Below, one piece after another: positions 1 to 41,249 of a DNA stretch of 64,000 nucleotides. How positions within the stretch are numbered: the stretch's first letter is position 1; every line of letters begins with the position of its first letter. Origin of the DNA: Octopus sinensis (lineage: Eukaryota); assembly GCF_006345805.1 (NCBI RefSeq), contig NC_042997.1:11408001-11472000 (forward strand). Reading direction: 5' to 3'. The translations under genes were made by a program, and so were the position numbers. The notes beneath the pieces are model-generated. The model had not been told where the DNA came from, ran no database searches, and saw nothing but the letters and a program-made list of their open reading frames with translations.

Positions 1-1890
1 TCACGTAAAATTCTTTTTAGTTTTGGGTCCTTGTATAGTATTAGTAGGTTTTGCATGATTGTGTTGAATGCTTCTTTGTTTCTGGGGTAGAGTAGTGTTT
101 TAAGGAGAGGTTTGTTAATGTCTTTGGTTTTTCTTAATGTCTTGGTGATGATAGATTTGGCACGTTTTATTCCATTATTAATGAGTTGGATTGGGTAGTG
201 TCTATCCAGGAGGATGTTTTTCAATTCTTGTAGTCTTAAATCTCTAGTTTTCTTTTTCTCTAAGACAATAGTGCAGATTCTTCTTGCAAGGTTGAAGGGG
301 ATGTTTGTTTTTGTGTGTCTAGGATGGCAAGAGCTAAAGAGAAGTTATTGTTTTGCATCTGTTGTTTTATAAAATATGTCTGTTTCGATTTTGTTGTTTG
401 TTTTTTAATTAGAATGTCTAGGAATAGAAGAGCCTCCTGGTTGTATTCCATTGTGAATTGAATGCTTGTGTTGATGCTGTTCAGAGGTGTTTTAAATTCT
501 AGGAGTTTGTTATTCCAGAATATGAAACAGTCATCCAGGTATCTCTTCCAATTCTCTTTAATGTATTGGGCGAGAGGGTCTCCAAATTTTCGCAGTGAAT
601 TCTGATATATTTTTTTCTCCAAGAATCCCATTGTGAGGTTGGCAATGGTAGGTGCTACTCTCGTGCCCATCGCAATTCTCGATATTTGGAAGTAGCAGTT
701 GGTGTCAAAAATGAAATAATTATTCTGGAGAATGAACTTAATTGATTTAATGATGAAGGTTTTGTTTATTCGTTCTGGTATTTCCTCTGGATGTAGTTCT
801 AGCCAGAATCAAATCGCTTCAGTTCCATAATCATGTAGAATGTTGGAGTATAGGTTTATAACATCGCAGGAGACCATGAGGGATTCTTCCCCGAATTTTA
901 TGGGAGATGGTTCAGCATGTCTAAATCATCTCTGATGTAGCTTCTAATATGTTTTAGATATGGCTTCAAGAGAATGTCCATGAAGTAACTTAATCTGCGT
1001 GTTTCACAGGATGGGCTGGCTATAATAGGTCGTAATTTTAAGTGTTCTGGTGTTGGTGTATGCATGTATGTATGTGTTGTGTGTATGTATGTATGTATGT
1101 ATGTATGTATGTATGTATGTATGTATGTATGTATGTATGTAGTGAGTTGTTGATGACTTCATCGATGGTTGGGCTTTTGTGGATTTTGGGGAGGCAATAG
1201 AAAAAGCTGGGTTTGTATTTGAAATTTGTTAGGAAATCTACTTACTTTTTTGTGAGGTCTTTCCCGTGGTTATGTATTAGTGAGGAGAGGTTTTTCATTA
1301 TTTCTAGGGATTGTAGTTGTTGATTTCTTCATAATACTCATTGTTGTTTTGTGTCCATAATTACCATTGCGCTACCTTTATCCGCTTTTTGATTGTAATT
1401 TCTTTGTGGTTTTGTAGTTTATTAATATCTTTCCATTGGATTTTGTTGAGGCTTCGGATGGTTTTCTGTTTGTGCAGGGTGTGATAGAGAAGGTTTTCGA
1501 TGTATTTGCAAAATTCATCAAGGCTTTTGTTTCTTTCTTTGTGGGGGGAGGGGGGGGTGTATTCGCTTTTGCTCTTGACCAGTGATTCATCCTGATCATC
1601 AAAGTCGGTCAGTACCTCTGCAAATCTTAATTTTTTGCAGAACCCCGAGACGCTGTCTTAATTTCACTTTGATTGGCTCTGCGGGGTGTCGGTGTGAATT
1701 TGAGTCCTTTGGAGAGGATGTCTATCTTAATGTTAGATAAGGATAAGTGGGAGAGGTTGATTACGTTGGGTTTCTCCTGTGTCTCGGGTTTCACCTTGTT
1801 ATCTGTTTCCTCTGGTGAGTGTCGAAAAAATTTTGGTTGTTTGGGTATGGGTTGCTTGTAGTGGGAGGGGGCTATATATATATAATCCAA
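1..1890 (-). mobile_element. Degenerate Penelope-like element (PLE) ORF: N-terminal region and reverse transcriptase, frameshifted, running off the window start
   Basis: Minus-strand ORF pieces carry PLE motifs: NVINLS...ILSKGLKFTPTP (1627-1890), MGTRVAPTIANLTMG, WKRYLDDCFIFW and FLDILI (260-670), then SSCHPRHTKTNIPFNLARRICTIV in a shifted frame. There are several stops and frameshifts, and a (GTAT)n run interrupts it at ~1058-1140. Confidence 0.9.
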
Positions 1891-1972
1891 TATAATATAA
1901 TATTAATATAATATATAGAAACAAAAATGTACACATATGTATGTGTATATACATACATACATACATATATAT

Positions 1973-4119: not shown

Positions 4120-4532
4120 ATATATATATATTAATATATATATATATATATATATAGATATCAACAATTGAGGGTAAAATTAATTAATTAATCATTGAGA
4201 GAAATTTTCTTTAAGTAGTAGAAATGCTAAGAAAAAAATTTTTTTTTGGCTGCTTTTCTACTAAGTTCAGTATGTGGCGAAGTAATTTATTTTACTAAGC
4301 CCTAATTATATAATGTATATATATATATATATATATATATATCTATATATATATATATATATATATATAGATCAACGATCAAGGCGACTAGAAATCCAAA
4401 GGACTGTATACTAAGTTAACTATAGTTGCAGAGCAAATAGTTTTATTGTACTGATTTAACGTTTAGTAAAGAATGCCAGTGTATAAAACTATATAATTGT
4501 GACTTTTAACAATCATTTCCTTCTATTTCTAG

Positions 4533-5023
4533 ACGAAACGAGTACTTTATCACCCCCTTTGTTAGAAGAATGGAAGATTCTCTACTACAAGCTGCCAATT
4601 ACCGTTGTGGTGATCATCTTTTTAGCCAGTACTTCCATTCTTGTGTCACGTCTAGTAGACAGAGTCTATAATACTTACAAAGACAACTGGGCTATACGCG
4701 AAGACGTCGCTGATGTGAACTATCAAACAAAAGAACTGATTAGAAACAAAATGAAAGTCAATGCTGAGACAAACACCGACGATTCTGGAGTTACCAACGT
4801 TTGGCTAAAGAAATACATAAATCTTTGGATGCAACGTGTTGCCGAGAAAAAGCGCACTGAAAGAGTTTCCAATGTCATCACATCGCAGCATAGGAAGAGC
4901 GTATCGGTGGCTGGCACGTCAGAAATGATGGAACCAGATGTTATCTCTCATGTTGTCGTGATTGAAGTTGGATCTAGTCGATGTCCTTCGAACAGCGACC
5001 TTAAAGCAACTGGATATATATAA
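4533..5023 (+). CDS. Probable terminal coding exon of a host membrane protein (one TM segment plus cytoplasmic tail); family not recognised
   Basis: A pyrimidine tract and AG acceptor (tttccttctatttctag) end at 4532. An open, non-repetitive frame of ~160 codons follows to TAA at 5023, with the hydrophobic stretch LPITVVVIIFLASTSILV. It resembles no TE protein I recognise. Confidence 0.55.
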
Positions 5024-38995: not shown

Positions 38996-39783
38996 ATGCA
39001 TGTTTATATATATATATATGTATGTAAGTATGTATGTATATATGAATGTATATACATGCTACATGCATACATATACACTATATGTAATAATTGAATTATT
39101 CCTATAAAAAGAGGATTTTTCTAAGTAAAGAACAACGCCCCATTATTGGAATTTTTAAAACAATAAAAAGGAGTAATGAATTACACTTTGAATTTTAGAA
39201 AAGCCTTACATATATGAACTGTTCTTATTACAAAACGAATTTGTCCGATACGTGTTAGATAATGTGTTTCTTAACCTGAAAACTTCACCTTTTGTCGACT
39301 GTTAGTTAAACACTAACAGTCGACTGTTAATTAAACACTAACAGTCGGCGAGCTGGCAGAAACGTGCGTACAATATGAGAGATTGTTTTGCAAAAGGAAA
39401 GCTTTTATGGCGGCGAGCTGGCAGAAACGTGAGTGTGCCGGGTGCAATGCTTAACTGTATTTCATCTGTCTTTACGTTATGCGTAGGAGTGGCTGTGTGG
39501 TAAGTAGCTTGCTTACCAACCACATGATTCCGGGTTCAGTCCCATTGCGTGGCATCTTGGGCAAGTGTCTTCTACCATAGCCTCGGGCCGACCAAAGCCT
39601 TGTGAGTGGATTTGATGGACGGAAACTGAAAGAAGCCCATCGTATATATGTATATATTTATATATATGGCATTATTATACATACATGCCACACGCTAAGA
39701 GGGACAAAATTAGTCATTTCTACCAAAAAATTTTACTAATCCCACCGAATGCAATTTTTCAAAGTAAGACATTTAAAAATATG

Positions 39784-39830
39784 GACTTGTATCACCTGTG
39801 ATTTCATACCTCTGTATTCATCAGCAAGCC
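39784..39830 (-). ncRNA. Type I hammerhead ribozyme (left-arm copy)
   Basis: Exact reverse complement of 40150-40196. Confidence 0.85.
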
Positions 39831-40149
39831 TGGACGTATCATAAATAAACGACCCTACCTCGTCTAAGCCGAGCAGCTAACTGATCAACATCAACGAAGC
39901 ACATGGGTGAGTTTACATATATTACATCTGGTAAATGGCAGACTTTTACGAATTGCATTCGGGAAAGGAAAAGTTTTTTCGGAATAAAAATTTAGCAATT
40001 AAGGACAATTCCTTTCTCGAAATGCAATTCGTAAAAGTCTGCCATTTACCAGATGTAATATATGTAAACTCACCCATGTGCTTCGTTGATGTTGATCAGT
40101 TAGCTGCTCGGCTTAGACGAGGTAGGGTCGTTTATTTATGATACGTCCA

Positions 40150-40196
40150 GGCTTGCTGATGAATACAGAGGTATGAAATCACAGGTGATACAAGTC
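40150..40196 (+). ncRNA. Canonical type I hammerhead ribozyme
   Basis: GGCTTG-CTGATGA-ATAC agag GTAT-GAAA-TCA cagg TGA-T-A-CAAGTC. All core nucleotides are present and stems I, II and III pair. Predicted cleavage is after A40190 (AUA). Confidence 0.88.
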
Positions 40197-41249
40197 CATA
40201 TTTTTAAATGTCTTACTTTGAAAAATTGCATTCGGTGGGATTAGTAAAATTTTTTGGCAGAAATGACTAATTTTGTCCCTCTTAGCGTGTGGCATGTATG
40301 TATAATAATGCCCTCTATATATAAATTATGTTCAATAAGAAAGAATTATTTTCGAAATTTTTTCTCTTATGAGGTCTTTCACGCTATCTATCCGATAATT
40401 TCTTGTTAAGTTTTCCTTATTAAGAAGTTGTCCTTAATTGCTAAATATTTATATATATGTATACGTGTCTGTGTTTGTCACCCCAACATCGCTTGACAAC
40501 CGATGCTGGTGTGTTTACGTCTCCGTAACTTAGCGGTTCGGCAAAAGAGACCGATAGAACAAGTACTAGGCTTACAAAGAATAAGTCCTGGGGTCGATTT
40601 GCTCGACTAAAGGCGGTGCTCCAGCATGGCCACAGTCAAATAACTGAAACAAGTAAAAGAGTAAAAGAGTAAAAGACTTAATAACACAGCCAAGTACACC
40701 AATAATTATAGGCAGAATCGGAAGTGTATAATCTGTTTATAAATGCAGCTTAAAGCCGTGGACTATAATGTTCTCTTTTTCATTAGTTTTGAATGGAATA
40801 GATTAAGTTAGGCTGCTGACTTCCTCAAGAGTACATTTTTTTTTCTGTCTCAAGCATTCAGGACTTGTTTGTATCTAGTGGAAATTTAGACTGAAATTCA
40901 CTACCAATATTTATTACAGTAGAATATATAAATATATATAAATATATACAAATCAGGAATATTTTGTATATTTGTTCCAGGGTATTCTTTTTTAAAAATG
41001 CATTGTGTATTGTTTTGACAACAACGCCAAGCCACATATTTACTGATATAATTTTGGTCAATTGCTGATTACTCGTGATGTGTAAATGACTTCTAGAAAA
41101 ATATTACGTGATCGATATTTTCGTATCTACATGGTTTAATTGATTTCGTTGTTTCTAGTATTCAACAGGTATTTAGTAGCTATGTCATGCACTTGGATTA
41201 CAAATGCACAACCTTCGAAATTCATTGAGGCGAGTGCTACACTTCCTGA

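What the first reader, a model, noticed from the sequence alone, without database searches (positions are those of the whole stretch)
39668..40446. 645-bp foldback with a fully canonical hammerhead on each strand, nested in a SINE
Seen in sequence: ~300-bp arms that are almost identical by eye, suggesting a recent origin or homogenisation. Each arm holds a hammerhead able to fold as a monomer (6-bp stem I, 4-bp stem II, true stem III, AUA site). The spacer contains a 19-nt inverted copy of the element's far end (39990-40008 vs 40428-40446), as expected from template switching during PLE-type reverse transcription. Inference: a transcript through both arms forms ~300 bp of dsRNA that masks the ribozyme and is a potential ADAR or Dicer substrate, whereas one starting in the spacer should self-cleave.
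Basis: partly seen in the sequence, partly recalled or inferred. Interest (0 to 1): 0.75.

Follow-up and report, generated by a model that had tools for sequence, protein, structure and literature searches.

The report
Two-armed retrozyme insertion, Penelope-style
This hairpin is one routine insertion of a small, protein-less jumping element that carries a predicted self-cutting RNA; most of its fetched relatives also sit in TA repeats as two back-to-back arms ending at two fixed points, which likely records a Penelope-type enzyme copying one RNA from both DNA strands.

Summary
The foldback is real: 292-bp arms with 1 mismatch, a type I hammerhead motif on each strand, and a 15-bp target-site duplication in the TA tract of a SINE. 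It is not special to this locus. It is one copy of a ~457-nt non-coding unit of non-LTR-retrozyme type (79 + 484 exact ribozyme cores in two subfamilies). Of the insertions examined, 42 of 76 and 26 of 40 are head-to-head and none tail-to-tail; 36 of 38 and 22 of 22 end at two different fixed sites ~125 nt apart. An autonomous Penelope-like element in the genome follows the same rule (14 of 15; 42-nt tail). Arms share private variants, and a third are not nested, which points to two cDNAs primed on one RNA. The 19-nt 'inverted far end' is the continuation of the permuted unit, not a template switch. No evidence was found for an ADAR/Dicer role, and this copy cannot excise a monomer. Cleavage, circles and the partner enzyme are untested; no read bridged the junction. 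The scan reported the same kind on other DNA of this genome (units of 352-600 nt).

The parts
39486..39653 (+). Host SINE, 5' half (A-box-like 39490-39500 and B-box-like 39533-39543; box consensus recalled)
   Evidence: 18 matches in the window, joined to 3' halves over a short microsatellite
39654..39668 (+). Target-site duplication, left copy (15 nt, TA-rich)
   Evidence: identical to 40445-40459
39669..40008 (-). Left arm: unit positions ~408-456 then 1-292, ending 4 nt short of fixed site A
39784..39830 (-). Type I hammerhead motif of the left arm (predicted cut after 39790)
39990..40008 (-). The 19-nt 'inverted far end': unit 408-426 at the inner end of the left arm
40008..40009 (.). Head-to-head inversion junction, 0-1 nt microhomology
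   Evidence: 27-mer private to this locus among the loci fetched
40009..40444 (+). Right arm: unit ~445-456 then 1-~426, ending at fixed site B
40150..40196 (+). Type I hammerhead motif of the right arm (core 40156-40162 and 40175-40178, predicted cut after 40190)
   Evidence: core intact in 104 of 115 segments, two compensatory pair changes
40313..40326 (+). Site A read through in the right arm (TA-rich internal stretch, one of the two fixed ends of the family)
40327..40444 (+). ~125-nt 'tail' between sites A and B, present on one arm only
40445..40459 (+). Target-site duplication, right copy
40460..40678 (+). Host SINE, 3' half with 8-nt terminal repeats
   Evidence: (D3)

Best explanation
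This is a single insertion of a ~457-nt non-coding, hammerhead-motif-bearing element of the non-LTR retrozyme type, and its foldback likely arose when a Penelope-like reverse transcriptase-endonuclease primed two cDNAs on one RNA. Inferred steps: the enzyme nicks both strands of a (TA)n tract about 15 nt apart; one 3' end primes at internal site A and the other at site B, helped by a few TA pairs; both cDNAs run towards the 5' side of the uncut (tandem or circular) template, through the ribozyme site; their ends are joined head-to-head, giving two overlapping arms and a target-site duplication. The hairpin is a by-product. This copy has one ribozyme per strand, so it could not excise a monomer, and any read-through RNA would meet the antisense arm first and mask the ribozyme.
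For: Shown: family of 79 + 484 exact cores (controls 0). Tandem, permuted units; 74 of 76 and 38 of 40 insertions have a TA-rich flank; 42 of 76 and 26 of 40 head-to-head, 0 tail-to-tail; A+B in 36 of 38 (34 of 36 without two local duplicates; p 5e-9 against 50%) and 22 of 22. Arms differ at 54 of 6135 sites and share 144 non-majority variants, against 4.2% and 0.44% between loci. 11 of 34 A+B insertions, this one included, have non-nested arms; in L064, L069 and L079 one arm stops at the other's priming site. 5' ends are not enriched at the ribozyme cut (2 of 112, 2.7 expected). An autonomous RT + GIY-YIG element sits in (TA)n with two ends 42 nt apart, paired a'+b' in 14 of 15 inverted copies. 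Literature: inverted 5' copy and tail on one end are PLE hallmarks (PMC8557442, PMC3846280); a PLE protein cuts and extends both strands and starts internally at two sites (PMC11167929); retrozymes are proposed PLE dependants (10.64898/2026.07.22.740005).
Against: No DNA similarity between the unit and the 64 PLE loci fetched, and no canonical hammerhead in that PLE family, so the partner is not identified. The tail is ~125 nt against 30-42 nt in PLEs. In vitro the anole PLE starts at a site not homologous to the target, whereas A and B are TA-rich. 23 of 34 insertions are nested and also fit self-priming. Shared variants could in part come from gene conversion. No read bridged the junction. 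Cleavage is unproven: inactive fold favoured by 5-7 kcal/mol, no Rfam match, and 8 of 9 predicted Xenopus retrozymes did not cleave in vitro.
Confidence: 0.8

Rival explanations
1. Self-priming (snap-back): one cDNA folds back on itself, copies itself and is joined to the target at a TA-rich internal site, as proposed for Penelope palindromes.
For: Several junctions are near-perfect palindromes with matched inner ends (L024, L027, L062, L063, L072, L076); 23 of 34 insertions are nested; proposed in PMC3846280 (passage). It explains identical arms and different ends.
Against: Needs one arm inside the other; 11 of 34, including this locus, are not nested, and four share 0-11 nt. It may still act at a minority of loci.
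Confidence: 0.08
2. The foldback is a selected regulatory structure: a dsRNA substrate for ADAR or Dicer, or a switch that masks the ribozyme.
For: A read-through RNA is predicted to form a ~300-bp duplex that masks the motif; strong RNA editing in cephalopods is recalled, not tested.
Against: Same geometry at more than half of the insertions examined; first T4 at 39731 for a SINE transcript; no host gene identified; no A>G over T>C excess among copies (12.5 against 12.1 per 1000; this tests inherited editing only); the locus's private variant was seen in 2 of 4 DNA-type runs, a weak hint that it is not fixed.
Confidence: 0.05
3. The foldback is an assembly or library artefact.
For: No listed contig bridged the junction; PLE inversions are known to trouble assemblies (PMC8557442).
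Against: 15-nt duplication at both ends, each end at a family-typical site, arms differing at three places, non-nested arms, and dozens of like structures with different junctions.
Confidence: 0.03
4. The two arms are independent insertions, or a post-insertion inverted duplication.
For: The element targets (TA)n and carries TA-rich internal sites, so nesting could occur.
Against: One duplication flanks both arms; a private variant (40051) is in both arms and in no other fetched locus; no tail-to-tail case in 116; the A+B rule.
Confidence: 0.04

Closest known systems
Metazoan non-LTR retrozymes (Cervera and De la Pena 2020, PMC7229834, passages read; Li, Clavereau and Pollet 2026, bioRxiv 10.64898/2026.07.22.740005, parts 1-3 of 5 read)
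   Same: Short non-coding tandem unit with a type I hammerhead, low GC, highly self-paired monomer, duplication longer than 4 bp, co-occurrence with PLEs.
   Different: Unit 457-478 nt (150-450 typical in the 2020 paper, up to 972 in 2026); mostly short dispersed insertions, over half of those examined head-to-head with two fixed ends, which the parts read do not describe ('inverted' 0 times in PMC7229834); circular RNA and cleavage not shown; no pLTR relative found.
EN+ Penelope-like elements (Craig et al. 2021, PMC8557442; Arkhipova et al. 2013, PMC3846280; passages read)
   Same: Partial tandems, inverted 5'-truncated copy head-to-head, tail on one end, microsatellite targets, duplications of about 8-15 bp.
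   Different: No ORF; tail ~125 nt instead of 30-40; full stem III hammerhead instead of a minimal one.
Anole Poseidon PAc in vitro (Frangieh et al. 2024, PMC11167929, parts 1-2 of 4 read)
   Same: Both strands cut and extended, AT-rich target, two internal start sites bounding the tail, ribozyme cleavage not needed for insertion.
   Different: PAc start sites are not homologous to the target and no pairing of different sites within one event was reported; here sites are TA-rich and paired A+B.
LINE-1 twin priming (recalled, not looked up)
   Same: Two primers on one RNA give a 5' inversion inside one target-site duplication.
   Different: There the second site is variable and arms hardly overlap; here both sites are fixed and arms overlap by up to a full unit.

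Membership tests
Non-LTR retrozyme | Type I hammerhead motif in each unit | tested here: met
   core intact 104 of 115; stem I T-A to C-G in 13, stem II A-T to G-C in 8 (probably one event each); no Rfam match
Non-LTR retrozyme | Short tandem units of a few hundred nt, low GC | tested here: met
   457- and 478-nt units, up to about 10 in tandem; this locus itself has no same-strand dimer of ribozymes
Non-LTR retrozyme | No coding capacity | tested here: met
   no stop-free frame of 120 aa or more over 39668-40446
Non-LTR retrozyme | Target-site duplication longer than 4 bp | tested here: met
   15 nt at this locus; not measurable at most other loci because both flanks are (TA)n
Non-LTR retrozyme | Highly self-paired monomer | tested here: met
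   circular fold -118 kcal/mol, z -6.2 against 60 shuffles; minus strand -83
Non-LTR retrozyme | Self-cleavage | not testable with these tools
   prediction only; inactive pairing favoured by 5-7 kcal/mol
Non-LTR retrozyme | Expressed as circular RNA | not testable with these tools
   only contigs were available, none on record as RNA
Non-autonomous PLE derivative | PLE insertion signature: head-to-head inversion, tail on one end, microsatellite target | tested here: met
Non-autonomous PLE derivative | Sequence relationship to the pLTR of an autonomous PLE | tested here: inconclusive
   none among 64 PLE loci, mostly one family; 150 of 10119 candidates were scored
Autonomous PLE | ORF for RT and GIY-YIG endonuclease | tested here: not met
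   no ORF; insertions examined are bounded by (TA)n, not by RT sequence

The most novel reading that the evidence does not exclude
Penelope-type enzymes build their inverted ends by obligate two-site twin priming: a dimer holds one RNA at two fixed internal sites and gives one to each nicked strand. The spacing is set by the RNA (42 nt in the autonomous element, ~125 nt in this retrozyme). The retrozyme, perhaps as a circle copied for more than one lap, is a 457-nt minimal substrate for that reaction.
Probability: 0.5. Interest if true: 0.6.

Novelty: new member of a known kind. Interest (0 to 1): 0.38.

Why it matters
The locus alone is ordinary. The family is useful: two papers read here name the origin of PLE tandem/inverted structures and the way retrozymes are mobilised as open questions (PMC8557442; 10.64898/2026.07.22.740005). 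A short non-coding template with two fixed start sites, and young PLEs with long open frames in the same genome, make both testable in the existing in vitro assay. It also warns against reading long ribozyme foldbacks in this genome as regulatory: they are a routine product of insertion.

Tried and rejected
Rfam: no match at gathering score in the window; no hammerhead family at E up to 1 in L086, L090, L146, L153. Sequencing runs: no RNA holder listed; two runs guessed to be RNA held short family pieces, not used as evidence. No listed contig bridged 40008/40009 in the 6 runs laid; tables were cut, so this proves nothing. The whole foldback and both flanks were never laid together, so empty-site alleles remain untested. 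My idea that the A+B rule proves a monomeric circular template (one A, one B per circle) was rejected because the 4-kb autonomous PLE shows the same rule and shared variants; a first by-eye reading, 44 that suggested many b'+b' pairs was an artefact of alignments running into TA tracts (corrected; one search was spoiled by the same effect). ADAR footprint among copies: none. Partner search: family accession not in the library; protein search gave PLEs without DNA similarity. Host gene: the one exon-like frame (4487-5023) had no Pfam match and no longer homologue. The bacterial promoter scan and tRNA scan were uninformative. Not-in-print check: searches listed no paper on cephalopod retrozymes or on head-to-head retrozyme insertions; subscription journals and the preprint's supplements were not seen and could hold such cases.

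Full report
Observation. The two arms (39668-39959, 40021-40312) match at 291 of 292 sites. The 19-nt inverted match is there. The structure sits in the TA tract of a SINE and is bounded by a 15-nt duplication, 39654-39668 and 40445-40459. The host looks like an octopus (SINE recalled; earlier scan notes say so); I cite the genome as G000.

What the element is. Reading the spacer on the minus strand shows the left arm running on from the element's 'far end' into its start, so the element is a permuted monomer of about 457 nt. A DNA search gave 2050 candidate places, 39 scored. The exact ribozyme core occurs 79 times and a second core 484 times; reversed controls 0. The second subfamily has a 478-nt unit, 87% identical. 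In 115 segments that cover the ribozyme, 104 keep the core; stem I has T-A in 96 and C-G in 13, stem II A-T in 106 and G-C in 8. These are probably two events inherited by subfamilies. The monomer folded as a circle gives -118 kcal/mol (z -6.2, 60 shuffles); the minus strand is at shuffle level. No long frame overlaps it. This meets the sequence-level definition of a non-LTR retrozyme (PMC7229834, passages; bioRxiv 10.64898/2026.07.22.740005, parts 1-3 of 5). Against: Rfam does not recognise the motif, the model prefers an inactive pairing by 5-7 kcal/mol, and that preprint saw cleavage in 1 of 9 elements tested.

The foldback is the family's normal insertion form. From loci L001-L090 I dropped 20 repeat fetches (including three extra contigs holding the L003 insertion) and pieces under 100 nt, leaving 76 insertions: 42 head-to-head, 34 simple, none tail-to-tail; 74 have a TA-rich flank. 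Outer ends fall at site A (unit ~297-309) or B (~424-432). Of the 38 inverted insertions with both ends at A or B, 36 are A+B, one A+A and one B+B; four more have one end elsewhere. Two are local duplicates, giving 34 of 36. Independent choice of ends could give at most 50%. As a replicate I took the first 40 new places listed for the second core (100 of 484 were listed): 26 head-to-head, 14 simple, 22 of 22 A+B, four with one end elsewhere. Sampling by best match and by core favours long insertions, so the inverted share is an upper estimate; the A+B pairing is not affected in an obvious way.

How the arms were made. In 32 loci with overlapping arms, arms differ at 54 of 6135 sites and share 144 non-majority letters; between loci the figures are 4.2% and 0.44%. 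This locus (1 of 281) is typical. Tandem neighbours within an insertion differ at 82 of 5588 sites, the two long arrays left out. So one template (or conversion) made both arms. Self-priming needs one arm inside the other; 11 of 34 A+B insertions are not nested, including this one, and in three the B arm stops at site A. Junctions show 0-5 nt overlaps, small palindromes or short inserts. 5' ends are not enriched at the cut site (2 of 112, 2.7 expected), so the template was not a ribozyme-cut linear monomer. Both sites are TA-rich and merge into the target tract. I infer two cDNAs primed from the two nicked strands at A and B.

The likely enzyme. An old PLE reverse-transcriptase fragment in the window (260-808) retrieved a young family with open frames of 800-850 aa, RT and a weak GIY-YIG match. 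It inserts in (TA)n and has two ends 42 nt apart; of 16 inverted copies among 34 hand-picked loci, 14 are a'+b', one a'+a', and one runs out of the fetched stretch. Its arms also share private variants. This is the known PLE pattern, an inverted 5' copy and a tail on one end (PMC8557442; PMC3846280), and fits a protein that cuts and extends both strands from two internal sites (PMC11167929). It also removes the argument that the rule proves a circular template. No DNA similarity to the unit and no canonical hammerhead was found in 64 PLE loci, so the actual partner is unknown.

Function of this copy. A transcript from either side meets the antisense arm first; the active ribozyme fold then costs 89 kcal/mol. 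That is geometry, shared by every head-to-head copy; 13 of 34 have 250 nt or more of shared arm. A SINE Pol III transcript would meet T4 at 39731 (terminator rule recalled). No host gene was identified. Copies show A>G 12.5 and T>C 12.1 per 1000. With one ribozyme per strand the copy cannot release a monomer. Reads: no listed contig bridged the junction. The variant at 40051, private to both arms among fetched loci, appears at depth 38 in X1 and 119 in X2 (flank about 37 and 62) and not in X4 or X5; the tool warns that depth is no copy number, so this is only a hint of presence in some samples and absence in others.

Novelty. Searches listed no paper on cephalopod retrozymes or head-to-head retrozyme insertions; unseen supplements and subscription papers may hold some. 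The scan's own notes report the same kind, with the same two-site rule, for other units in this genome; none matched this sequence or this place. My reading was written down before that look-up. Verdict: real, a new member of a known kind, ordinary as a locus, moderately interesting as a family because it makes the PLE insertion mechanism testable.

Noticed in passing
window 260-1900 (-): Decayed Penelope-like element with an RT fragment (Pfam RVT_1, E 7e-4), ending next to a TA tract near 1880; about 67% identical in protein to a young family.
   Followed up: partly
L121-L154 (e.g. L153:698-4641, L124:2347-5654): Young ~4-kb PLE family with a CxxC-type motif before GIY-YIG and no canonical hammerhead found; several copies show two long frames (about 495 aa and 811 aa) instead of one ORF, suggesting a frameshift or intron.
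   Followed up: partly
L089:2637-6013 and L090:2389-7499: Arrays of 7-10 units made in one insertion; L089 alternates two unit variants and some units carry changed core letters.
   Followed up: partly
window 40021-40048 and 40205-40232: A 28-nt imperfect inverted repeat inside the unit closes the long stem that carries the ribozyme; the core can pair with the 5' strand of stem III, a possible off state of the circle.
   Followed up: partly
L003-L006: The same insertion with the same flanks on four small contigs: segmental duplication or redundant assembly.
   Followed up: no
L010, L063, L077: Whole insertions duplicated in tandem together with their TA tracts.
   Followed up: no
window 4487-5023 (+): 178-aa open frame that reads like a real exon (hydrophobic stretch then soluble tail); no Pfam match, no longer homologue found.
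   Followed up: partly
window 39294-39434: Two short duplications (25 nt tandem, partly palindromic; 24 nt at 65-nt spacing) just upstream of the host SINE.
   Followed up: no
runs X1, X2, X4 over window 39960-40446: Summed contig depth of 1e5-7e5 over most of the unit against about 40-60 on unique flank suggests the family is far larger than the exact-core counts; depth is not a copy number.
   Followed up: no
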